A stretch of DNA of 64,000 nt from Shigella phage ESh31: the sequence record ON528741, one strand, 5' to 3'. The position numbers were made by a program, and so were the translations under genes. This document shows, in pieces, positions 1,640 to 59,922 of the stretch. The notes under the pieces are model-generated. The model did no database searches, was not told the origin of the DNA, and worked only from the letters and a program-made list of their open reading frames with translations. How positions within the stretch are numbered: position 1 is the stretch's first letter; each line of letters begins with the position of its first letter.

Positions 1640-2608
1640 ATGAAAACTGTAACTATCAATAAGGGTATCTACTTTGGCAAAGAAATCTCTGGAACTTTTG
1701 AACTCTTAGGTGAGTGGTTCCCTGATAATGCTCCAGTAGATGCACAGGGAGATGGTAAAGTTTTTGTTGAAATTGACGGTAAGCGTCGCGGTGTTTGGGT
1801 TTACAAATCAGACATTTCATATGATGGTGTAAAAGTTGAAGAAGTTAAAGAATCGTATGAAGATATGAAAACCCGCATTAATAAAAGATTTAATGTTATG
1901 GGAATGATGACGAATGGTATTATTAACGGAAACATTCGTTCATTAATTATCTCGGGAGCAGCAGGTATTGGTAAAACGTATTCTTTAGATAAAGCTTTAA
2001 ATAAAGCAAATGATATTGGATACATTGAATATAAAAGCATTAATGGTAAAATCTCTGGTATCGGTCTTTATGAACAGCTTTGGAATAATCGTGAAGAGAA
2101 TTCTGTCCTTTTGATTGATGATGTGGATGTTTTCTCTGATATGGACATTCTTAATCTTCTGAAAGCTGCTCTGGACACTGGAGAGACCCGTAAAGTCTGC
2201 TGGAGCACCGCATCTTCTTACTTAGAAGAAAAAGGCATTGAGCGTGAGTTTGAATTTAAAGGAACGATTGTTTTTATCACAAACGTTGACATTGACCGCG
2301 AATTAGACCGTGGTACTAAACTTGCTCCACATTTACAAGCATTAGTGTCCCGCTCAGTTTATTTGGATTTGGGTGTTCACACTAATGAAGAAATTATGGT
2401 CAGGGTTGAAGATGTTATTCTTTCAACTGACATGATGCAAAAGCGCGGTCTTTCTGATGAAGAAACTTATAAAGCATTATCATGGATGAAAGTCAATGTT
2501 AATCGTTTACGCAATGTTTCACTACGTACTGCGCTTTATCTTGCTGACTTTATTATGACCGACAAAAACGGTTGGGAAGAAATCGCTGAGGTTACTCTTC
2601 TGAAATAA
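1640..2608 (+). CDS. P-loop (AAA-like) ATPase (T4 nrdC.10-position ORF)
   Basis: 322 aa; Walker A GAAGIGKT, Walker B LLIDDVD, sensor-like FITNV; AAGGAG RBS. Confidence 0.55.
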   Translation: MKTVTINKGIYFGKEISGTFELLGEWFPDNAPVDAQGDGKVFVEIDGKRRGVWVYKSDISYDGVKVEEVKESYEDMKTRINKRFNVMGMMTNGIINGNIRSLIISGAAGIGKTYSLDKALNKANDIGYIEYKSINGKISGIGLYEQLWNNREENSVLLIDDVDVFSDMDILNLLKAALDTGETRKVCWSTASSYLEEKGIEREFEFKGTIVFITNVDIDRELDRGTKLAPHLQALVSRSVYLDLGVHTNEEIMVRVEDVILSTDMMQKRGLSDEETYKALSWMKVNVNRLRNVSLRTALYLADFIMTDKNGWEEIAEVTLLK

Positions 2609-2709
2609 TTCATAAGAGGATTTCTATGACAAAAAGGCAGTTCAGAAATAGATTATATGGACTGCCATTAAAAAGATGACTAGAATTAAACTGGTAAATG
2701 GAGGTAGTG

Positions 2710-3012
2710 ATGTTATACTCAAAGGCTCGTGAAATTTACGAAACTAAAATTAAAGAAGCAGTATTTCAGTTCGCAACAACGATGCGATGGACAAATGATT
2801 GGGAGTATTCAAAAAATCATAAGAAGCCCATGGTGACAAGAAAGGCTCATATGTTAGTGTTAATAGACCGTGAGCAGATTAAAGCCCGAGAAGCCCTCCA
2901 GAATCATAAAAAGGCTGCCTTTGAATGGTTTATGGATAACACTGCTCCTGAGACTAAGAAAGCAGTGAGTGCGTGGTTCAGTGGAAAAAATTGTGAAAGA
3001 AGTTTCTTTTAG
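2710..3012 (+). CDS. hypothetical protein (100 aa)
   Basis: Internal ATG at 2710 preceded by GGAGGT RBS; the track's upstream ATG at 2698 lacks an RBS. Confidence 0.4.
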   Translation: MLYSKAREIYETKIKEAVFQFATTMRWTNDWEYSKNHKKPMVTRKAHMLVLIDREQIKAREALQNHKKAAFEWFMDNTAPETKKAVSAWFSGKNCERSFF

Positions 3013-3014
3013 TT

Positions 3015-3072
3015 GTTTACAAGACCGTTCCTCTGTGGTACTATACAACTATCAACTACGGAGGAACACAAA
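3015..3072 (+). promoter_or_regulatory. early promoter/leader cassette (PeSL-like)
   Basis: GTTTAC -35, GTGGTACTATAC -10 region, conserved leader CAACTATCAACTACGGAGGAAC ending at the ATG 3073. Confidence 0.5.
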
Positions 3073-3600
3073 ATGAACGCTAAAGATATTTTCAACCTGG
3101 TAAATTACAACGATGGTAAATTTAAATCAGAAGCACAAAGCAAGTTCTTTAATGACATCTCAATTGGAGGTGAAATCACTGTTGATGGAGGACAAATTTA
3201 CAAATCCCGTTGGAATTGGATCGTTATTATTGACGAGATCGGTATTGTAGAAATTTACAAGAATACGAATAAAAATCGTACATTACACTGGTCTCGTGAT
3301 ACTAACGAACAGTACAAAAAGGATAAAGCATCTAAATTATCTCGTGTAACTCAAGAAGATATTGAGTTCATCAAGAAAGATATTTTGATGTATGATAACT
3401 TAATTGCTGAAGAGCAAGCTGTTATTGATAAATTTGACGAGATTAAAGCTTCTCGTGAAATTCCTGATTTTATGAAAGAATCAGTAAATGAACGATACAC
3501 TCTCATTTCAGAGCGTATTGAAACTTACAAAAAGCAAAGAGCTGAACGCCAAAATACTCTTCGGAAGTTTGAAGAACGGTTAAAGACGGTACTCGCATAA
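3073..3600 (+). CDS. hypothetical protein (175 aa)
   Basis: Start set at the internal Met with GGAGGA RBS directly downstream of the early promoter cassette. Confidence 0.5.
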   Translation: MNAKDIFNLVNYNDGKFKSEAQSKFFNDISIGGEITVDGGQIYKSRWNWIVIIDEIGIVEIYKNTNKNRTLHWSRDTNEQYKKDKASKLSRVTQEDIEFIKKDILMYDNLIAEEQAVIDKFDEIKASREIPDFMKESVNERYTLISERIETYKKQRAERQNTLRKFEERLKTVLA

Positions 3601-26150: not shown

Positions 26151-28847
26151 ATGAAAGAATTTTATATCTCTATCGAAACAGTCGGAAATAATATTGTTGA
26201 ACGTTATATTGATGAAAACGGAAAGGAACGTACTCGTGAAGTAGAATATCTTCCAACTATGTTTAGGCATTGTAAGGAAGAGTCAAAATACAAAGACATC
26301 TATGGTAAAAATTGTGCTCCTCAAAAATTTCCATCAATGAAAGATGCTCGAGATTGGATGAAACGAATGGAAGACATCGGTCTCGAAGCTCTCGGTATGA
26401 ACGATTTTAAACTCGCTTATATCAGTGATACATACGGTTCAGAAATTGTTTATGACCGAAAATTTGTTCGTGTAGCTAACTGTGACATTGAGGTTACTGG
26501 TGATAAATTTCCTGACCCAATGAAAGCTGAATATGAAATTGATGCTATCACTCATTACGATTCAATTGATGATCGTTTTTATGTTTTCGACCTTTTGAAT
26601 TCAATGTACGGTTCAGTATCAAAATGGGATGCAAAGTTAGCTGCTAAGCTTGACTGTGAAGGTGGTGATGAAGTTCCTCAAGAAATTCTTGACCGAGTAA
26701 TTTATATGCCATTCGACAATGAGCGTGATATGCTCATGGAATATATTAATCTTTGGGAACAGAAACGACCTGCTATTTTTACTGGTTGGAATATTGAGGG
26801 ATTTGACGTTCCGTATATCATGAATCGCGTTAAAATGGTTCTCGGTGAACGTAGTATGAAACGCTTCTCTCCAATCGGTCGAGTAAAATCTAAACTTATC
26901 CAAAATATGTACGGTAGCAAAGAAATTTATTCTATTGATGGCGTATCTATTCTTGATTATTTAGATTTGTATAAGAAATTCGCATTTACTAATTTGCCGT
27001 CATTTTCTTTGGAATCAGTTGCTCAGCATGAAACCAAAAAAGGTAAATTACCATACGACGGTCCTATTAATAAACTTCGTGAGACTAATCATCAACGATA
27101 CATTAGTTATAACATCATTGACGTAGAATCAGTTCAAGCAATTGATAAAATTCGCGGGTTTATCGATCTAGTTTTAAGTATGTCTTATTACGCTAAAATG
27201 CCTTTTTCTGGTGTAATGAGTCCTATTAAAACCTGGGATGCTATTATTTTTAACTCATTGAAAGGTGAACATAAGGTTATTCCTCAACAAGGTTCGCATG
27301 TTAAACAGAGTTTTCCGGGTGCATTTGTGTTTGAACCTAAACCAATTGCTCGTCGATATATTATGAGTTTTGACTTGACGTCTCTGTATCCGAGCATTAT
27401 TCGTCAGGTTAACATTAGTCCTGAGACTATTCGTGGTCAGTTTAAAGTTCATCCAATTCATGAATATATCGCAGGAACAGCTCCTAAACCGAGTGATGAA
27501 TATTCTTGTTCTCCGAATGGATGGATGTACGATAAGCATCAAGAAGGTATCATTCCAAAGGAAATCGCTAAAGTATTTTTCCAGCGTAAAGATTGGAAAA
27601 AGAAAATGTTCGCTGAAGAAATGAATGCCGAAGCTATTAAAAAGATTATTATGAAAGGCGCAGGGTCTTGTTCAACTAAACCTGAAGTTGAACGATATGT
27701 TAAGTTCAGTGATGATTTCTTAAATGAACTATCGAATTATACTGAATCTGTTCTCAATAGTTTGATTGAAGAATGTGAAAAAGCGGCTACACTTGCTAAT
27801 ACAAATCAGCTGAACCGTAAAATTCTTATTAACAGCCTTTACGGCGCTCTTGGTAATATTCATTTCCGCTACTATGATTTGCGAAATGCTACTGCTATTA
27901 CAATTTTTGGTCAAGTCGGTATTCAGTGGATTGCTCGTAAAATTAATGAGTATCTGAATAAAGTATGTGGAACTAATGGCGAAGATTTCATCGCAGCAGG
28001 TGATACTGATTCGGTATATGTTTGTGTAGATAAAGTTATTGAAAAAGTTGGTCTTGACCGATTCAAAGAGCAGAACGATTTAGTTGAATTCATGAATCAG
28101 TTCGGTAAGAAAAAGATGGAACCTATGATTGATGTTGCATATCGTGAGTTATGTGATTATATGAATAACCGCGAGCATCTGATGCATATGGACCGTGAAG
28201 CTATTTCTTGCCCTCCGCTTGGTTCAAAGGGTGTCGGTGGATTTTGGAAAGCGAAAAAACGTTATGCTCTGAACGTTTATGATATGGAAGATAAGCGATT
28301 TGCCGAACCGCATCTAAAAATTATGGGTATGGAAACTCAACAGAGTTCAACACCAAAAGCAGTACAAGAAGCTCTCGAAGAAAGTATTCGTCGTATTCTT
28401 CAGGAAGGTGAAGAGTCTGTCCAAGAATATTACAAGAACTTCGAGAAAGAATATCGTCAACTTGACTATAAAGTTATTGCTGAAGTAAAAACTGCGAACG
28501 ATATAGCGAAATATGATGATAAAGGTTGGCCAGGATTTAAATGTCCGTTCCATATTCGTGGTGTGCTAACTTATCGTCGAGCTGTTAGCGGTTTAGGTGT
28601 AGCTCCAATTTTGGATGGAAATAAAGTAATGGTTCTTCCATTGCGTGAAGGAAATCCATTTGGTGACAAATGCATTGCTTGGCCGTCGGGTACAGAACTT
28701 CCAAAAGAAATTCGTTCTGACGTACTGTCTTGGATTGACTACTCAACTTTGTTCCAAAAATCGTTTGTTAAACCGCTTGCAGGCATGTGTGAATCGGCTG
28801 GTATGGACTATGAAGAAAAAGCTTCGTTAGACTTCCTGTTTGGCTGA
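26151..28847 (+). CDS. 43: DNA polymerase gp43 (family B)
   Basis: 898 aa; exonuclease and polymerase motifs (YGDTDS); C-terminal clamp-binding tail SLDFLFG. Confidence 0.95.
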   Translation: MKEFYISIETVGNNIVERYIDENGKERTREVEYLPTMFRHCKEESKYKDIYGKNCAPQKFPSMKDARDWMKRMEDIGLEALGMNDFKLAYISDTYGSEIVYDRKFVRVANCDIEVTGDKFPDPMKAEYEIDAITHYDSIDDRFYVFDLLNSMYGSVSKWDAKLAAKLDCEGGDEVPQEILDRVIYMPFDNERDMLMEYINLWEQKRPAIFTGWNIEGFDVPYIMNRVKMVLGERSMKRFSPIGRVKSKLIQNMYGSKEIYSIDGVSILDYLDLYKKFAFTNLPSFSLESVAQHETKKGKLPYDGPINKLRETNHQRYISYNIIDVESVQAIDKIRGFIDLVLSMSYYAKMPFSGVMSPIKTWDAIIFNSLKGEHKVIPQQGSHVKQSFPGAFVFEPKPIARRYIMSFDLTSLYPSIIRQVNISPETIRGQFKVHPIHEYIAGTAPKPSDEYSCSPNGWMYDKHQEGIIPKEIAKVFFQRKDWKKKMFAEEMNAEAIKKIIMKGAGSCSTKPEVERYVKFSDDFLNELSNYTESVLNSLIEECEKAATLANTNQLNRKILINSLYGALGNIHFRYYDLRNATAITIFGQVGIQWIARKINEYLNKVCGTNGEDFIAAGDTDSVYVCVDKVIEKVGLDRFKEQNDLVEFMNQFGKKKMEPMIDVAYRELCDYMNNREHLMHMDREAISCPPLGSKGVGGFWKAKKRYALNVYDMEDKRFAEPHLKIMGMETQQSSTPKAVQEALEESIRRILQEGEESVQEYYKNFEKEYRQLDYKVIAEVKTANDIAKYDDKGWPGFKCPFHIRGVLTYRRAVSGLGVAPILDGNKVMVLPLREGNPFGDKCIAWPSGTELPKEIRSDVLSWIDYSTLFQKSFVKPLAGMCESAGMDYEEKASLDFLFG

Positions 28848-28860
28848 TAGAATAAATCTA

Positions 28861-28882
28861 GGGACCTCCGGGTCCCTTTTTC
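28861..28882 (+). terminator. UUCG-type tetraloop terminator
   Basis: GGGACC-TCCG-GGTCCC followed by TTTTTC. Confidence 0.55.
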
Positions 28883-28963
28883 ATACAAGTAATATAAATC
28901 TATACTTATGAAAAACAGATGATTCTGGACCTTTAGAATTCCCTAAAAAATTTTCACAAAACT

Positions 28964-29027
28964 GTTTACAAGACTGTTCTTCCATGGTACTATACAACTA
29001 TCAACTAATACGGATTTGGAGAATAAA
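28964..29027 (+). promoter_or_regulatory. early promoter/leader cassette (PeSL-like)
   Basis: GTTTACAAGACTGTTCTTCCATGGTACTATACAACTATCAACTA...GGAGAATAAAATG; near-identical copies at 56210 and 59852. Confidence 0.5.
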
Positions 29028-29264
29028 ATGAAAATTGTTATGGGATGCTTAGCAGTTTGTTTAGTTGCATTAGCAGCAGTTCCATTTGTTAGTGTTGAAA
29101 ATGATACTCAACCTGTGATTGAATCTAGCACCGTTATTCACACTAATGGTAAAATATCAGTTAAAATTGATGATAATCTTCATGTGAATACAAATGGATC
29201 TTTAGGTGTGCAAATGGGTAATACCTGCATAAGCACTACTGGAGTAATTACTACTTGCATTTGA
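29028..29264 (+). CDS. small secreted protein (signal peptide)
   Basis: 78 aa from the internal Met; N-terminal hydrophobic signal MKIVMGCLAVCLVALAAVPF. Confidence 0.45.
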   Translation: MKIVMGCLAVCLVALAAVPFVSVENDTQPVIESSTVIHTNGKISVKIDDNLHVNTNGSLGVQMGNTCISTTGVITTCI

Positions 29265-29274
29265 GGAAATTATT

Positions 29275-29655
29275 ATGAAAATCGCTATTTTGGTTATTGC
29301 ATTAGGTCTTACTGGTTGTGTAGCTCAAGGACCGGTAGTAAATCAGTCTGATGTAGGAAAAATTGTAAACTGTTCAAGCAAATTTTATAATCCTAATGTC
29401 AAGTGTTATAAAGAAGCTCCAAAGCAAACAGTCGAACAAATGCAGGCGAATTTTGACGAAGCTATTCGTCCAGATGAATCTGCTCAAGCATATCGTAATT
29501 CTGATGTAATTACACGCGAAGAAAAAATTGAAAACTACTGCGCCGAGCTTTGGGCTAATTGGGCTAATAATTACCAATGGCGTACTGGTAAAAATGCTCC
29601 GATGGAGTATGTAGTGAATTCTTATAATTCATGCGTAAAAAATTTGACTAAGTGA
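29275..29655 (+). CDS. predicted lipoprotein
   Basis: 126 aa; signal peptide with lipobox LTGC (MKIAILVIALGLTGCVAQ); GAGG RBS. Confidence 0.5.
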   Translation: MKIAILVIALGLTGCVAQGPVVNQSDVGKIVNCSSKFYNPNVKCYKEAPKQTVEQMQANFDEAIRPDESAQAYRNSDVITREEKIENYCAELWANWANNYQWRTGKNAPMEYVVNSYNSCVKNLTK

Positions 29656-29662
29656 GGAAAAC

Positions 29663-29914
29663 ATGGAAACTTTAGTAGCAGGTTCAATTTTTATGGTTTT
29701 AGTTTCAGGTGTGTTGGCTATTATTATATACATGCTTCCATGGTTTATCGCCTTGATGCGTGGGTCAAAATCGACAGTAGGAATCTTTTTCACATCTTTA
29801 CTGTTTAACTGGTCAATTATTGGTTGGTTTATTACATTTATTTGGTCAATTGCGGGTGAAACTAAAAAGTCTGCACAGCCAAATCAGGTAATTATCATCA
29901 GAGAGAAGGAATGA
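29663..29914 (+). CDS. imm: superinfection immunity membrane protein Imm
   Basis: 83 aa; two transmembrane helices; length and position upstream of gene 42 match T4 imm. Confidence 0.6.
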   Translation: METLVAGSIFMVLVSGVLAIIIYMLPWFIALMRGSKSTVGIFFTSLLFNWSIIGWFITFIWSIAGETKKSAQPNQVIIIREKE

Positions 29915-30060
29915 AAAGCAAAATTATAGCAGTGTTGCTTTTAATCTTGATGATTATAATAAGTATATACTATAGTGTAACGGTTCCTCTTATGATTCCA
30001 ACTATTATTTTAGGTTGGAGCTTATTACTGTTACAAGTTAAATATGAATGTATCAATTGA
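29911..30060 (+). CDS. hypothetical small membrane protein (49 aa)
   Basis: ATGA overlap with imm; strongly hydrophobic; below the track cutoff. Confidence 0.35.
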   Translation: MKSKIIAVLLLILMIIISIYYSVTVPLMIPTIILGWSLLLLQVKYECIN

Positions 30061-30067
30061 GGTTTAA

Positions 30068-30808
30068 ATGATTAGTGACTCTATGACAGTTGAAGAAATC
30101 CGTCTTCATTTGGGGCTTGCATTAAAAGAAAAAGATTTCGTAGTTGATAAAACTGGCGTTAAAACTATTGAAATTATTGGCGCATCATTTGTAGCAGATG
30201 AACCCTTTATTTTTGGCGCTCTTAATGATGAATACATTCAGCGTGAACTTGAATGGTACAAGTCTCAAAGTCTGTTTGTTAAAGATATTCCAGGTGAAAC
30301 ACCAAAGATTTGGCAGCAGGTAGCATCTTCTAAAGGCGAAATTAACTCGAATTATGGTTGGGCTATTTGGTCAGAAGATAACTATGCCCAGTATGATATG
30401 TGTTTAGCTGAACTTGGTCAAAATCCTGATTCTCGACGTGGTATCATGATTTATACTCGTCCATCTATGCAGTTTGACTATAATAAAGATGGTATGTCAG
30501 ATTTCATGTGCACGAATACAGTACAGTACCTGATTCGTGACAAGAAAGTCAATGCAGTAGTAAGCATGCGCTCAAATGACGTGGTCTTCGGATTCCGTAA
30601 TGATTATGCATGGCAAAAATACGTATTAGATAAATTAGTATCTGATTTGAATGCAGGCGATTCAACTCGTCAGTATAAAGCAGGTTCTATTATATGGAAT
30701 GTTGGAAGTCTTCATGTATATTCTCGTCATTTTTACTTGGTTGATCATTGGTGGAATACTGGCGAAACTCATATTGTGAAAAAAGACTATAAAGGTGAGT
30801 GGAAATGA
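30068..30808 (+). CDS. 42: dCMP hydroxymethylase
   Basis: 246 aa; thymidylate-synthase-like fold; matches T4 gp42. Confidence 0.9.
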   Translation: MISDSMTVEEIRLHLGLALKEKDFVVDKTGVKTIEIIGASFVADEPFIFGALNDEYIQRELEWYKSQSLFVKDIPGETPKIWQQVASSKGEINSNYGWAIWSEDNYAQYDMCLAELGQNPDSRRGIMIYTRPSMQFDYNKDGMSDFMCTNTVQYLIRDKKVNAVVSMRSNDVVFGFRNDYAWQKYVLDKLVSDLNAGDSTRQYKAGSIIWNVGSLHVYSRHFYLVDHWWNTGETHIVKKDYKGEWK

Positions 30809-31647
30809 TTCAATTCGTAATTCCAAGTTATCAACGTGTCGGGGCAGTTTCTGCCCTTGATATGTTTCCGACTGATTATGAACCGCATATTGTAGTGCGT
30901 GAACACGAAGAAAAAGCTTATTATGATGCTTATGGGTCTAGAGCTAAAATTATAACTATTCCTGATGATGTAAACGGAATTGCCGGTACTCGTAAAGCAA
31001 TTACTGATATGTATGCAGGTCAACGAATTTGGATGATTGACGATGATACTACTATTCGTATGAGTTCAATGCGAAAAAGAGATGACCGTCGTTGTGTGGA
31101 TAAAGTCAATCAATTGACTCATGAACAGTTCTATGAATTGATTCAATATGTTGAGGATGCCATGGATTGCGGGTATTATCATGGCCATGCTCGTCTACCT
31201 ATTTTTAAAATTACTTCATCTTGGGGTAATTATCGTGAAAATTCATACGGATTCACGAATACATGGTATGACCTCGGAAAACTTACGACAGAACAAATTG
31301 GGTATGGAAAAATTGATTTATGCGAAGATATGTATGCATTTCTCAATTTAATTAATCAAGGCTATCCGCATTTGGCCTTGTTCAAATATCTGGTTGTATC
31401 TGGAAAAGCACAAGCTCCTGGCGGGTGCAGTTCAATTCGTAGTAATTCTAAACATAATAGAGCGCTTGAGCAAATCAATAGAGAGTTTCCAGAGCAAGCT
31501 CGTTGGAAAACTTCTAATATTGAAAAACGAAAATCGTTGGGTGAAGAAGATGAACCACTAAAGGTTCTTCGCATGTGTGTTTCACGTAAAGAAAAATCAG
31601 AAGCATTTCATAAGTTTAATGCTATTCATCCAATAGCAGTTGATTAA
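30799..31647 (+). CDS. GT-A type glycosyltransferase at the beta-gt locus (candidate beta-glucosyl-HMC alpha-glucosyltransferase)
   Basis: 282 aa; DxD-type motif WMIDDDTT; occupies the position of T4 beta-gt but is shorter and unrelated in sequence. Confidence 0.5.
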   Translation: MEMIQFVIPSYQRVGAVSALDMFPTDYEPHIVVREHEEKAYYDAYGSRAKIITIPDDVNGIAGTRKAITDMYAGQRIWMIDDDTTIRMSSMRKRDDRRCVDKVNQLTHEQFYELIQYVEDAMDCGYYHGHARLPIFKITSSWGNYRENSYGFTNTWYDLGKLTTEQIGYGKIDLCEDMYAFLNLINQGYPHLALFKYLVVSGKAQAPGGCSSIRSNSKHNRALEQINREFPEQARWKTSNIEKRKSLGEEDEPLKVLRMCVSRKEKSEAFHKFNAIHPIAVD

Positions 31648-35237: not shown

Positions 35238-35531
35238 ATGAAAAAATTTATTTTTGCTACAATTTTTACTTTGGCTTCTTGTGCTGCTCAGCCTGCTATG
35301 GCAGGTTATGATAAAGATTTGTGTGAATGGTCTATGACTGCAGATCAGACTGAAGTTGAAACTCAAATTGAAGCGGATATTATGAATATCGTTGAGCGTG
35401 ATCGTCCTGAAATGAAAGCTGAAGTACAAAAACAGCTTAAGTCTGGTGGTGTAATGCAGTATAATTATGTTCTGTATTGCGATAAAAACTTTAATAACAA
35501 AAATATCGTAACCGAAATCACAGGTGAATAA
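35238..35531 (+). CDS. sp: periplasmic protein Spackle
   Basis: 97 aa with signal peptide MKKFIFATIFTLASCAAQPAMA; length and position match T4 sp (61.3). Confidence 0.7.
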   Translation: MKKFIFATIFTLASCAAQPAMAGYDKDLCEWSMTADQTEVETQIEADIMNIVERDRPEMKAEVQKQLKSGGVMQYNYVLYCDKNFNNKNIVTEITGE

Positions 35532-48221: not shown

Positions 48222-48249
48222 ATTTGCATAAAGTTTAAAATTTTTTCAT

Positions 48250-48328
48250 AAAACTATATACATCAGTAGTTGATTATGGTACTATATCAATATCAACTAC
48301 TGATACAGAAAATAACTTGGAGAATAAA
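48250..48328 (+). promoter_or_regulatory. promoter/leader cassette with hairpin flanking the -10
   Basis: CAGTAGTTGAT (48264-48274) and ATCAACTACTG (48292-48302) are exact reverse complements around TATGGTACTATATCAAT; GGAG RBS follows. Confidence 0.45.
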
Positions 48329-48598
48329 ATGGAAAACTTAATTATCATCGAGCAATCTTTTAATGATTATGGTATGGCTTACGGTTATCGTGCGATAATG
48401 GAAGATTCTCGTGGATGTGTTATCGATATTGCTGAATGTAAAGATTTACTGCAGCTTTTGAAGATTGTTCGCAAAAATTGGGATTGTGAAAACATTAAAG
48501 CTCGTGTTGTAACGGAAGAAGAAACTGTTTTTCATGATGTAAAATTTGCCAAAGGTGCTGCTACTCTTCTGAAACGCATCGCTCCACTGTTCAATTAA
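48329..48598 (+). CDS. hypothetical protein (89 aa)
   Basis: Start at the internal Met after GGAGAATAAA. Confidence 0.4.
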   Translation: MENLIIIEQSFNDYGMAYGYRAIMEDSRGCVIDIAECKDLLQLLKIVRKNWDCENIKARVVTEEETVFHDVKFAKGAATLLKRIAPLFN

Positions 48599-55636: not shown

Positions 55637-56194
55637 ATGCAGAAAACGAATCCGGGTTTACAGAGACTATTTCAGATTCCGACATTTACCCTATCGAACA
55701 GTGACTTGACTAGTGAAATGAAGGTCAAAATTGCTGATACAGCAAGATACTCTTTAAAACAAAACCCGAACCAGGATAAAGCAGAAGTTATCGAAAGATG
55801 CCGTATCGCTGTGTACGCAGAGTTTTTTGTGGCAGATTGGCTAAGCGGATATGTCAATAAAGGCCAAGAAGATGTCGATGATCCGTACACATATGCATGG
55901 GATGTATTGGCGCATCCAAAATACTGCGGGCTTCGCGTAGAAGTTAAGACACATCAAACTGACTCGCGTTGGATTTCGGTAACAACAGGATGCAGCGGAG
56001 AGTATCCATATGGTTCTGGAATAAATCTAGGGCCCATTCTAAATCATCAAGTCGCTGACTGTATAATTATATTCAACACTAAAGAAATTCATCCAGGTGT
56101 CATCCAGTACACTCCGAAGTTCATCGGTGACAGAGAAGACCTTCGTAAAGTTGTAAGAAAAAGCAACTACAGCGGATGGTATCTTTCCATTTAA
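55637..56194 (+). CDS. denB: endonuclease IV DenB
   Basis: 185 aa; length and position next to rIIB match T4 denB. Confidence 0.75.
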   Translation: MQKTNPGLQRLFQIPTFTLSNSDLTSEMKVKIADTARYSLKQNPNQDKAEVIERCRIAVYAEFFVADWLSGYVNKGQEDVDDPYTYAWDVLAHPKYCGLRVEVKTHQTDSRWISVTTGCSGEYPYGSGINLGPILNHQVADCIIIFNTKEIHPGVIQYTPKFIGDREDLRKVVRKSNYSGWYLSI

Positions 56195-56209
56195 AAATTT
56201 CACAAAACA

Positions 56210-56276
56210 GTTTACATACCACAAGGACCGTGGTACTATACAACTATCAACTACTGATACGGATTTGGAGAATAAA
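56210..56276 (+). promoter_or_regulatory. early promoter/leader cassette (PeSL-like)
   Basis: GTTTACATACCACAAGGACCGTGGTACTATACAACTATCAACTACTGATACGGATTTGGAGAATAAAATG. Confidence 0.5.
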
Positions 56277-56540
56277 ATGAAATTTAAATTTTATTACGCT
56301 AAACATAAAATAACTGATGAGTTTGTGTCAGTTGAATATTCGAGCGATGATGAAGGCATGATTTATACTCGCTTAGGATTATCGCATTGGGAGTCTGATC
56401 AGCCTTATTTTTCAACTCCTGAAGAAATTACACGCTTAGTTAATGGTCATATGAATGACCACTGGAATGTAATTCTTTCAGATAGTCTTAAAGAGGCTAT
56501 TAATAGTAATGAAATGAAAATCGCTGAGATTGAACTATGA
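56277..56540 (+). CDS. hypothetical protein (87 aa)
   Basis: Start at the internal Met after the cassette RBS. Confidence 0.4.
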   Translation: MKFKFYYAKHKITDEFVSVEYSSDDEGMIYTRLGLSHWESDQPYFSTPEEITRLVNGHMNDHWNVILSDSLKEAINSNEMKIAEIEL

Positions 56541-56725
56541 GTTCATTATGGTGGTGTTTTGTTTGGTTAATTAGTATTCCAGTAATCTGTTTAACATTTA
56601 CTTTTGTGATGAGGTTATTATGAAAATTTTGAATTCTGTACTTATTGCTTGTGCGTGGTGGGTTGCACAGGTTTCAGCGGTAGTAGTTGGTATTCACATT
56701 TATTACGAATATTTTTAAAAAAGTT

Positions 56726-56783
56726 GTTTACAAGACTGTTCTTCCGTGGTATTATTACCCTATCAACTACGGAGGAACAGAAA
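56726..56783 (+). promoter_or_regulatory. early promoter/leader cassette (PeSL-like)
   Basis: GTTTACAAGACTGTTCTTCCGTGGTATTATTACCCTATCAACTACGGAGGAACAG. Confidence 0.5.
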
Positions 56784-56897
56784 ATGAAAAAGATTGTTAA
56801 AGCTATATGGAATGTAGTTATAATACTAGTAGTTTTGAGTATATTCCCAATCGTTTTAATGATTGATGTATTAAACGTTTACTTTGGATTTATGTGA
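56784..56897 (+). CDS. hypothetical small membrane protein (37 aa)
   Basis: MKKIVKAIWNVVIILVVLSIFPIVLMIDVLNVYFGFM directly after the promoter cassette. Confidence 0.3.
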   Translation: MKKIVKAIWNVVIILVVLSIFPIVLMIDVLNVYFGFM

Positions 56898-59828: not shown

Positions 59829-59851
59829 TTTAAAATTTTTTTCACAAAACG

Positions 59852-59922
59852 GTTTACAACCAAAGCATACTGTGGTACTATACAACTATCAACTACTGAT
59901 ACAGAATTACGGAGATTAGAAA
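59852..59922 (+). promoter_or_regulatory. early promoter/leader cassette (PeSL-like) driving motA
   Basis: GTTTACAACCAAAGCATACTGTGGTACTATACAACTATCAACTACTGATACAGAATTACGGAGATTAGAAAATG. Confidence 0.5.

What the first reader, a model, noticed from the sequence alone, without database searches (positions are those of the whole stretch)
29028..30060. Expanded envelope-protein cluster at the imm locus
Between gene 43 and gene 42, behind an early promoter cassette, lie four consecutive small envelope-targeted proteins: a 78 aa secreted protein, a 126 aa lipoprotein with a canonical LTGC lipobox, the 83 aa Imm-like two-helix protein, and a 49 aa hydrophobic peptide overlapping the imm stop. T4 is known for imm and one small neighbour here, so the secreted protein and lipoprotein may be additional superinfection-exclusion or envelope-remodelling factors.
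Basis: partly seen in the sequence, partly recalled or inferred. Interest (0 to 1): 0.45.

Follow-up and report, generated by a model that had tools for sequence, protein, structure and literature searches.

The report
Ordinary T4-type imm operon, four genes
The four small envelope-protein genes are real, but they are the standard imm locus of T4-like phages: T4 already has three of them, including the lipoprotein (imm.1), and the one useful lead is that this lipoprotein sits next to the exclusion gene imm in every related phage group examined.

Summary
Four tightly packed + strand ORFs with good ribosome-binding sites lie between gene 43 and gene 42, after a terminator hairpin and a T4-type early promoter cassette.

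- The 126-aa lipoprotein is T4 imm.1 itself (Pfam DUF5481, 99% identical), not an addition.
- The 49-aa peptide is also intact in T4 but unannotated in RefSeq.
- Imm differs from T4 Imm at one residue.
- Only the 78-aa ORF is missing from T4 (clean 247-bp indel at an ATGAAAAT repeat). tblastn finds it in 325 phage records against 501 with Tequatrovirus-type imm.1 (about 65%), all annotated hypothetical.

All four are under purifying selection: dN/dS is 0.33 (78-aa ORF), 0.04 (imm.1), 0.05 (imm) and 0.27 (49-aa ORF).

An imm.1-family lipoprotein (phrog_1754) is at most one small gene from imm in all 12 Tevenvirinae lineages examined. This holds even where the pair has moved beside spackle (Mosigvirus) or the gene order is reversed (Dhakavirus, Gaprivervirus). 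That supports, but does not prove, a shared role with Imm, which a 2026 preprint shows binds the tape-measure protein.

Neither imm.1 nor the 78-aa ORF has a recognisable fold or a tested function. Verdict: known locus, low to moderate interest.

The parts
28860..28877 (+). Intrinsic terminator-like hairpin after gene 43 (AGGGACC-TCCG-GGTCCCT followed by TTTTT)
   Evidence: Conserved in T4 and five other Tequatrovirus loci. Annotated as a terminator in NR1 and DalCa.
28939..29040 (+). T4-type early promoter cassette: -35 TTTACA at 28965-28970, 17-nt spacer, TG-extended -10 TACTAT at 28988-28993, then a leader with the GGAG Shine-Dalgarno of ORF-A
   Evidence: Consensus scan. Five other ~100-bp copies in the window at 72-81% identity. 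Nearly invariant across T4, CT01, PBM-1, JoYop and L009.
29028..29264 (+). ORF-A, 78 aa. N-terminal 21-residue hydrophobic segment (signal peptide or signal anchor) plus a ~55-aa beta-rich periplasmic domain with Cys67 and Cys77. Accessory gene restricted to Tequatrovirus.
   Evidence: phrog_4189 at E 4e-30, no Pfam hit. 325 phage records. 14 clusters among 5.8e9 proteins. dN/dS 0.33. Absent from T4 and L009, scrambled in CT01. AF2 pLDDT 53, no fold match.
29275..29655 (+). imm.1 orthologue, 126 aa. Lipoprotein precursor (MKIAILVIALGLTG|C15, Val at +2, so outer-membrane sorting is expected). Mature ~111 aa with four Cys and a C-terminal four-helix region.
   Evidence: Pfam DUF5481, 239 bits against a cutoff of 27. 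99% identical to T4 NP_049661. dN/dS 0.039. Lipobox found by pattern. AF2 helices 53-125 with pLDDT 70-86. Adjacent to imm in all lineages examined.
29663..29914 (+). imm, 83 aa: inner-membrane superinfection immunity protein. One substitution relative to T4 Imm (A44T).
   Evidence: PF14373, 58 bits against a cutoff of 27.9. Alignment to T4. R33 and W50, which are needed for activity in T4, are present (bioRxiv 10.64898/2026.03.06.709160).
29911..30060 (+). ORF-D, 49 aa: very hydrophobic hairpin-like membrane peptide. Its start overlaps the imm stop (ATGA). Conserved C-terminal motif MIPTxIxGW...LQxKYECxN.
   Evidence: phrog_3610 at E 9.5e-26. Intact but unannotated in T4. 762 phage records in several genera. 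dN/dS 0.27. Coupled to imm in Dhakavirus, Gaprivervirus, L020 and L021, but separate from imm in Mosigvirus and Winklervirus.

Best explanation
This is the normal early-transcribed imm operon of a Tequatrovirus (T2/T6-type glucosylation), not an expansion.

Transcription: an early promoter just after the gene 43 terminator drives ORF-A, imm.1, imm and ORF-D. With no terminator in between, transcription continues into gene 42.

Shown:
- Imm is essentially T4 Imm. In T4, Imm sits in the inner membrane and binds the helical-bundle domain of the tape-measure protein gp29 of a superinfecting phage, so its DNA is not translocated (2026 preprint, plus older work that I cite from my own knowledge).
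- The 126-aa lipoprotein is T4 imm.1.
- ORF-D is present in T4.
- ORF-A is a dispensable, faster-evolving Tequatrovirus-only accessory gene that T4 lacks.
- All four are under purifying selection.

Inferred:
- Imm.1 is exported and lipidated at Cys15.
- With no Asp at +2, Lol would sort it to the inner leaflet of the outer membrane, exposing a disulfide-bonded helical domain to the periplasm.
- Its gene stays next to imm through relocations and order reversals across Tevenvirinae, and it is as constrained as imm. It therefore most likely acts in the same process, as a periplasmic partner that helps intercept or destabilise the incoming tail tip or tape-measure protein, or that supports Imm.
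- ORF-D is probably a small inner-membrane accessory peptide, translationally coupled to imm.
- ORF-A is a periplasm-facing accessory protein of unknown role.
For: Identity:
- T4 alignment and ORFs.
- Pfam and PHROG hits.
- 462 of 515 phage records cover at least 80% of the cluster at high identity.

Real genes:
- Shine-Dalgarno sites.
- dN/dS 0.33, 0.039, 0.046 and 0.27, against 0.007 for gene 43 and 0.041 for gene 42.

Operon: promoter and terminator.

Imm mechanism: bioRxiv 10.64898/2026.03.06.709160.

imm.1-imm linkage:
- An exhaustive HMM search of 1.84e9 representatives finds only 6 DUF5481 clusters.
- The four full-length clusters outside the Tequatrovirus type were looked up, and each lies directly upstream of an Imm_superinfect gene. 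The other two clusters are Tequatrovirus-type fragments.
- In Mosigvirus the pair has moved to dmd-imm.1-imm-sp, while ORF-D stayed by gene 43.
- Gelderlandvirus, Jiaodavirus and Karamvirus have 43-lipoprotein-imm-42.
- Dhakavirus and Gaprivervirus have 43-imm-ORF-D-lipoprotein.
- All of these lipoproteins hit phrog_1754.
- tblastn record counts of the three lipoprotein subtypes (656 + 148 + 128) approach the 1001 records with Imm.

Family features:
- Lipobox in 9 of 11 family representatives.
- Invariant Tyr38, Cys89 and Cys120.
Against: - No experiment links imm.1, ORF-A or ORF-D to exclusion.
- Imm alone on a plasmid excludes T4 (preprint functional assay; Lu and Henning 1989, from my own knowledge). 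Imm.1 is therefore not required for the basic effect.
- Two imm.1 lineages (P0019, P0020) have lost the lipobox and have a signal-peptidase-I-type signal, so lipid anchoring is not essential.
- Part of the linkage may be inherited synteny of the 43-42 region.
- Imm-like genes outside Tevenvirinae (Obolenskvirus) have no such lipoprotein.
- The AF2 models are of low to moderate confidence and give no fold-level clue.
Confidence: 0.55

Rival explanations
1. Linkage without shared function. Imm.1, ORF-D and ORF-A are unrelated early envelope proteins that travel with imm only because small early genes in this region are co-transcribed and inherited as a block. Possible unrelated roles include outer-membrane stabilisation, protection against lysis from without, receptor or porin masking, or a counter-measure to a host envelope defence.
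For: - The 43-42 interval is syntenic across most Tevenvirinae.
- Imm works alone on a plasmid.
- ORF-D separates from imm in Mosigvirus and Winklervirus.
- There is no sequence or fold similarity between Imm.1 and Spackle or any known exclusion protein.
Against: - imm.1 moved together with imm to a new locus in Mosigvirus.
- It kept adjacency after an order reversal in Dhakavirus and Gaprivervirus, and under a different upstream neighbour in L020.
- Its constraint equals that of imm.
Confidence: 0.33
2. One reading: the secreted protein and the lipoprotein are extra genes beyond what T4 has, and this phage has an enlarged superinfection-exclusion arsenal.
For: - ORF-A really is absent from T4.
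- It is the fastest-evolving gene of the cluster: 78-100% amino-acid identity, while its neighbours are at least 97.6% identical. That pattern can accompany conflict-driven genes.
Against: - The lipoprotein is T4 imm.1, and the 49-aa ORF is also in T4.
- ORF-A is in about 65% of Tequatrovirus records, so it is not special to this phage.
- Its dN/dS of 0.33 indicates relaxed purifying selection, not positive selection.
- It has been lost or scrambled repeatedly.
Confidence: 0.08
3. ORF-A is a decaying or non-functional insertion, not a working gene.
For: - Presence/absence polymorphism, and a pseudogenised form in CT01.
- Truncated annotations such as P0013 and P0014.
- Indel-prone hydrophobic N-terminus.
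- Low-confidence structure prediction.
Against: - The frame is intact over the full length in 296 records.
- dN/dS is about 0.33 with dS up to 0.42.
- The C-terminal STTGVITTCI motif is invariant.
- It has a good Shine-Dalgarno site directly behind an early promoter.
Confidence: 0.04

Closest known systems
Bacteriophage T4 imm locus (43 - imm.1 - imm - [unannotated 49-aa ORF] - 42)
   Same: - Same genes, order, promoter, terminator and spacing.
- Imm has one substitution, imm.1 is 99% identical, and ORF-D has one substitution.
   Different: - The window carries a 247-bp segment encoding ORF-A between the promoter and imm.1.
- A 1-nt difference at the imm.1 3' end removes T4's alternative 94-aa Imm reading frame.
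- Downstream, the window has the T2/T6-type beta-glucosyl-HMC-alpha-glucosyltransferase instead of T4 beta-gt.
T4 Spackle (Sp, gp61.3), a periplasmic inhibitor of the gp5 tail lysozyme
   Same: - Small, early, exported, disulfide-containing helical periplasmic protein of T-even phages.
- In Mosigvirus, sp lies immediately after imm.1-imm.
   Different: - No homology beyond the signal peptide (hhalign).
- Spackle is soluble, whereas Imm.1 is usually lipid-anchored.
- Spackle's target is known (PMC7677548); Imm.1's is not.
Lipoprotein-type superinfection exclusion proteins: T5 Llp, T1/phi80 Cor, and Streptococcus phage TP-J34 Ltp
   Same: - Phage-encoded, early or lysogenically expressed lipoproteins acting outside the cytoplasm.
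- Ltp is reported to block DNA injection via the tape-measure protein (my own knowledge; Ltp family in PMC3952083). That is the same target class as Imm.
   Different: - No sequence or family match (Pfam, PADLOC and NCBIfam scans).
- Llp and Cor block the outer-membrane receptor. To my knowledge, T4-infected cells still adsorb superinfecting phage.
- No function has been shown for Imm.1.
HK97 gp15 and colicin-immunity-like inner-membrane proteins
   Same: Imm's mode of action, binding the incoming tape-measure protein at the inner membrane, is likened to these in the 2026 preprint.
   Different: This concerns Imm only. Those systems are single proteins with no conserved lipoprotein partner.

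Membership tests
Imm_superinfect (PF14373) / T4 Imm | HMM score above the Pfam gathering threshold, and near-identity to T4 Imm over 83 aa | tested here: met
   58.2 bits against a cutoff of 27.9. 82 of 83 residues identical to T4.
Imm_superinfect (PF14373) / T4 Imm | Residues shown to matter for exclusion in T4 (R33, W50) | tested here: met
   Both are present in the window Imm and invariant against Mosigvirus Imm. Mutant data come from the preprint.
Imm_superinfect (PF14373) / T4 Imm | Blocks DNA entry of superinfecting T-even phage | not testable with these tools
   Needs plaque or ejection assays.
DUF5481 (PF17578) = T4 imm.1 family; wider phrog_1754 | HMM score above threshold over the full length | tested here: met
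   239.2 bits against a cutoff of 27, positions 1-103 of 103. phrog_1754 at E 5e-44.
DUF5481 (PF17578) = T4 imm.1 family; wider phrog_1754 | Position next to imm (an empirical hallmark found here) | tested here: met
   7-nt gap to imm in the window. Adjacent to imm, or separated by one small gene, in all 12 lineages examined.
Bacterial lipoprotein (Lgt/LspA substrate) | Positively charged n-region, hydrophobic h-region, and lipobox [LVI][ASTVI][GAS]C with Cys at about position 15-35 | tested here: met
   MK-IAILVIALG-LTGC15. The lipobox is conserved in 9 of 11 family representatives.
Bacterial lipoprotein (Lgt/LspA substrate) | Actual lipidation and outer-membrane localisation | not testable with these tools
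   Only inferred. The +2 residue is Val and is never Asp in any lineage.
Sec-type cleaved signal peptide (ORF-A as a 'secreted protein') | h-region followed by a polar c-region with small residues at -3 and -1 | tested here: inconclusive
   - The 21-residue uncharged stretch I3-V23 is TM-length.
- The only AXA site (A14-L15-A16) lies inside it.
- Alleles with PFIDIEND lack any site after Pro19.
- HY01-type alleles gain an LAAC lipobox by a 21-nt duplication.
- No SignalP-type predictor was available.
Known exclusion or defence protein families (Llp, Cor, Ltp, SieA/B; PADLOC set) | Sequence-profile match | tested here: not met
   ORF-A, Imm.1 and ORF-D gave no significant hit in Pfam, NCBIfam or PADLOC, and none in PDB sequences.
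Spackle family | Profile-profile similarity of the mature domain | tested here: not met
   hhalign aligns only the 18-residue signal peptide.
T4 early promoter | Sigma-70 -35/-10 hexamers with an extended upstream and downstream similarity block shared among early promoters | tested here: met
   TTTACA-17-TACTAT with TG. Five paralogous ~100-bp cassettes in the window.

The most novel reading that the evidence does not exclude
The imm.1-family lipoprotein (DUF5481/phrog_1754) and Imm, often with the 45-49-aa peptide ORF-D, form a conserved multi-component, envelope-spanning superinfection-exclusion module of Tevenvirinae.

- An outer-membrane-tethered periplasmic protein and an inner-membrane protein would together trap the incoming tail tip or tape-measure protein.
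- In that case the classical 'Imm' phenotype is only part of the system.
- ORF-A would be a strain-variable add-on that tunes specificity.
Probability: 0.3. Interest if true: 0.55.

Novelty: already known. Interest (0 to 1): 0.3.

Why it matters
As stated, the finding describes a locus already present in T4 and annotated in hundreds of genomes. It changes little.

Three things are worth keeping:
- Annotation corrections. The lipoprotein is imm.1. RefSeq's 'iduronate sulfatase' name for it has no support. T4 has an unannotated, conserved 49-aa gene between imm and 42.
- A testable hypothesis. The imm.1 lipoprotein family is essentially confined to Tevenvirinae, is as constrained as imm, and is physically tied to imm through several rearrangements. 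The Imm target (tape-measure protein) has just been identified, so testing whether Imm.1 is the missing periplasmic partner is now a cheap and well-defined experiment.
- A candidate for strain-specific effects. ORF-A is a variable accessory gene that could be examined for differences in exclusion between T-even phages.

Tried and rejected
- **PDB sequence search.** Nothing significant. ORF-A gave a weak hit (E 3.1) to a baseplate central-spike beta-helix, which I judged compositional.
- **Homology of Imm.1 to Spackle or to ORF-A.** Rejected by hhalign.
- **Paralogues of the four proteins elsewhere in the window.** None found.
- **Deep homologue searches.** The ORF-A family has only 14 clusters at 90% identity, all Tequatrovirus-like. 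DUF5481 has only 6 clusters at 50% identity in 1.84e9 representatives.
- **IMG/VR scan with Imm.** Gave only 7 loci.
- **Literature.**
  - No paper on imm.1 function or DUF5481.
  - One genomics paper lists Imm.1 as a T4-group marker and calls an exclusion role unproven (PMC5885020).
  - The T4 genome review and Lu and Henning 1989 are not held.
  - The CRISPRi-ART paper text has nothing on imm or imm.1.
- **ORF-A homologue in Mosigvirus.** The 78-aa ORF after gene 43 in OLB35 is not one; it is a fragment of a SIS-domain isomerase.
- **Alternative TTG start of ORF-A (29016, 82 aa).** Rejected because it has no Shine-Dalgarno site.

Full report
**1. What is there**

On the + strand, gene 43 (DNA polymerase, 898 aa) ends at 28847 and gene 42 (dCMP hydroxymethylase, 246 aa) starts at 30068. 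Four ORFs lie between them:
- ORF-A: 29028-29264, 78 aa.
- A 126-aa ORF: 29275-29655.
- An 83-aa ORF: 29663-29914.
- ORF-D: 29911-30060, 49 aa. Its ATG overlaps the previous stop (ATGA).

Each has a GGAG/GAGG Shine-Dalgarno sequence at normal spacing.

Upstream features:
- A terminator-like hairpin at 28860-28877.
- A promoter, TTTACA-17 nt-TACTAT with an upstream TG, at 28965-28993.
- The ~100 bp around this promoter (28939-29040) recurs five more times in the window at 72-81% identity. That is the signature of the T-even early-promoter cassette family.
- No terminator separates ORF-D from gene 42.

**2. Identity of the four genes**

Family scans:

| ORF | Pfam | PHROG |
|---|---|---|
| ORF-A (78 aa) | none | phrog_4189, E 4e-30 |
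| 126-aa ORF | DUF5481/PF17578, 239 bits (cutoff 27) | phrog_1754 |
| 83-aa ORF | Imm_superinfect/PF14373, 58 bits (cutoff 27.9) | phrog_1039 'immunity to superinfection' |
| ORF-D (49 aa) | none | phrog_3610, E 9.5e-26 |

The window is a Tequatrovirus. The 1220-bp interval matches 515 phage records by megablast, 462 of them over at least 80% of its length.

The T4 RefSeq annotation of the same interval is 43 - imm.1 (125 aa) - imm (83 aa) - 42. A base-by-base alignment with T4 and the T4 ORF list show the following:
- The lipoprotein is T4 imm.1: 99% identical, with LAGC in T4 against LTGC here.
- Imm differs by one residue.
- The 49-aa ORF is intact in T4 with one substitution but is not annotated in NC_000866.
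- The only difference in gene content is a clean 247-bp indel containing ORF-A.
- The indel is bounded by the octamer ATGAAAAT, which starts both ORF-A and imm.1. In T4, imm.1 therefore uses the Shine-Dalgarno site that serves ORF-A here.

The premise that T4 has 'imm and one small neighbour', so that the lipoprotein is new, is mistaken. The neighbour called imm.1 is the lipoprotein.

**3. Are they real genes?**

I ran pairwise Nei-Gojobori analysis over 6-11 Tequatrovirus loci:

| Gene | dN/dS |
|---|---|
| ORF-A | 0.33 (dS up to 0.42) |
| imm.1 | 0.039 |
| imm | 0.046 |
| ORF-D | 0.27 |
| gene 43, 3' end | 0.007 |
| gene 42, 5' end | 0.041 |

All four are under purifying selection. imm.1 is as constrained as imm. 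ORF-A and ORF-D are more relaxed.

**4. ORF-A**

Distribution and dispensability:
- tblastn finds it in 325 phage records, 296 at near full length. Tequatrovirus-type imm.1 is in 501 records, so about 65% carry ORF-A.
- It forms only 14 clusters at 90% identity among 5.8 billion proteins, all Tequatrovirus-like.
- Outgroup lineages with 43-imm.1-imm (L018, L021, L023) have only a ~180-nt spacer. ORF-A therefore looks like a gain within Tequatrovirus.
- It is absent from T4 and from IMG/VR locus L009, with the same junction in both.
- In Shigella phage CT01 the region is scrambled: a duplicated promoter -10/Shine-Dalgarno plus imm.1 5' end, followed by a frame-broken ORF-A fragment.
- ORF-A is therefore dispensable.

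Protein features:
- The N-terminus (MKIVMGCLAVCLVALAAVPFVSV) is an uncharged 21-residue stretch.
- It carries 21-nt tandem duplications in several alleles. In the HY01-type allele the duplication creates an LAAC lipobox.
- The data cannot decide whether it is cleaved (ALA16|A17) or acts as a signal anchor.

**5. Imm.1**

Signal and sorting:
- The precursor has a textbook lipoprotein signal (K2, hydrophobic core, LTG|C15).
- Val is at +2. No lineage has Asp at +2, so by the Lol sorting rule (established knowledge) it should reach the outer membrane and face the periplasm. This is inference.

Structure:
- AF2 gives four helices in residues 53-125 at pLDDT 70-86 and an unconfident N-terminal third.

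Family size:
- An exhaustive HMM search of 1.84 billion representatives finds six clusters at 50% identity.
- PHROG 1754 links these to 147-167-aa lipoproteins of other Tevenvirinae genera.
- In an 11-sequence alignment, Tyr38, Cys89 and Cys120 are invariant, which suggests a likely disulfide. The lipobox is present in 9 of 11. Two lineages instead have an AHA-type signal-peptidase-I site, i.e. a soluble periplasmic form.

**6. The conserved neighbourhood**

The family member is at most one small gene away from imm in every lineage examined:

| Lineage | Arrangement |
|---|---|
| Tequatrovirus | 43-[ORF-A]-imm.1-imm-ORF-D-42 |
| Mosigvirus | dmd-imm.1-imm-sp-61.2; ORF-D homologue stays behind gene 43 |
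| Gelderlandvirus, Jiaodavirus, Karamvirus | 43-lipoprotein-imm-42 |
| Dhakavirus, Gaprivervirus | 43-imm-ORF-D-lipoprotein |
| Four metagenomic lineages, one with a different upstream gene | imm.1 directly upstream of imm |

Further points:
- Record counts for the three lipoprotein subtypes (656, 148 and 128) approach the 1001 records that carry Imm. Some of those Imm records are not T4-like.
- In an Acinetobacter Obolenskvirus, an Imm-like gene has no lipoprotein neighbour. It does have an overlapping 37-aa transmembrane peptide, reminiscent of imm/ORF-D coupling.
- Co-relocation and order reversal give evidence beyond inherited synteny that imm.1 and imm belong together functionally. It remains guilt by association.

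**7. Mechanism**

- For Imm, a 2026 preprint reports co-purification and a cryo-EM reconstruction of Imm bound to the helical-bundle domain of the tape-measure protein gp29. It also reports loss of exclusion in the W50A and R33A mutants. Both residues are present here.
- In that work, Imm alone on a plasmid excludes T4. Imm.1 is therefore not essential for the basic effect.
- My best-supported reading is that the locus is an early operon of envelope proteins centred on Imm. Imm.1 would be a periplasmic, usually outer-membrane-tethered partner acting in the same entry-blocking process. ORF-D would be a small inner-membrane accessory peptide, and ORF-A a variable accessory protein.
- The main rival is that these are functionally independent early envelope proteins.
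- I found no literature on imm.1 function. One comparative-genomics paper lists Imm.1 as a T4-group marker and says an exclusion role 'remains to be proven' (PMC5885020).

**8. Comparison and novelty**

- The closest known system is the T4 imm locus itself, with near-identical membership.
- Functional analogues are Spackle (no homology) and lipoprotein exclusion factors such as Llp, Cor and Ltp (no family match).
- The cluster is already known and annotated, mostly as 'hypothetical'.
- What is not in the literature I could search is the systematic imm.1-imm pairing across Tevenvirinae.
- The finding as stated merits low to moderate interest. The module hypothesis would be moderately interesting if confirmed.

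Noticed in passing
window 29640-29665; T4 locus L001 5374-5658 (- strand): In the window, the imm.1 stop codon TGA (29654-29656) is in frame three codons upstream of the imm ATG. The 94-aa 'early-start' Imm that exists in T4, and was used for cryo-EM in the 2026 preprint, therefore cannot be made here. The difference is a 1-nt indel at the imm.1 3' end. This supports the 83-aa form as the conserved protein.
   Followed up: partly
T4 RefSeq NC_000866 26636-27013 (L001 5637-6014): RefSeq names imm.1 'iduronate sulfatase', and this name has spread to other phage records (JLBYU31, Kelasse). The Pfam scan shows only DUF5481 and no sulfatase domain, so it is probably an annotation artefact.
   Followed up: partly
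T4 locus L001 5228-5377 (- strand); window 29911-30060: A conserved 49-aa hydrophobic ORF between imm and gene 42 is intact in T4 but unannotated in NC_000866. Homologues of 45-49 aa with the motif MIPTxIxGW...LQxKYECxN occur in 762 phage records, including Mosigvirus, Dhakavirus, Gaprivervirus and Winklervirus.
   Followed up: yes
window 29040-29090; L016 1226-1483; proteins P0005, P0011, P0012: The hydrophobic N-terminus of ORF-A is a hotspot for in-frame 21-nt tandem duplications (CLVALAA unit). One common allele (HY01-type, 85 aa) thereby acquires an LAAC lipobox, and UniRef calls it 'Lipoprotein'.
   Followed up: partly
L017 (Shigella phage CT01) 1009-1846: This is a scrambled version of the locus. 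It has a duplicated promoter -10/Shine-Dalgarno segment and the first 36 codons of imm.1, then a frame-broken ORF-A fragment, then a full imm.1. It is annotated as 101-aa and 179-aa hypothetical proteins.
   Followed up: partly
window 28939-29040 and 3014-3077, 48236-48335, 56185-56285, 56708-56799, 59839-59921: Six copies of a ~100-bp early-promoter cassette at 72-81% identity are spread over the window.
   Followed up: no
L003 (Mosigvirus PhAPEC2) 2495-3530: In RB69-like phages, imm.1 and imm are not between genes 43 and 42. They lie directly upstream of spackle (dmd-imm.1-imm-sp), which brings both classical exclusion genes and the lipoprotein into one block. The window's own sp is at 35238-35528.
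   Followed up: partly
L030 (Acinetobacter phage IME284, Obolenskvirus) 1486-1808: A distant Imm-like 70-aa gene is followed by a 4-nt-overlapping 37-aa single-TM peptide. This is analogous to the imm/ORF-D translational coupling, with no detectable sequence similarity to ORF-D.
   Followed up: no
window 30799-31647: The gene after 42 is a beta-glucosyl-HMC-alpha-glucosyltransferase (phrog_842, E 2e-89), not T4 beta-gt, and there is no segA. The phage therefore has T2/T6-type DNA glucosylation.
   Followed up: no
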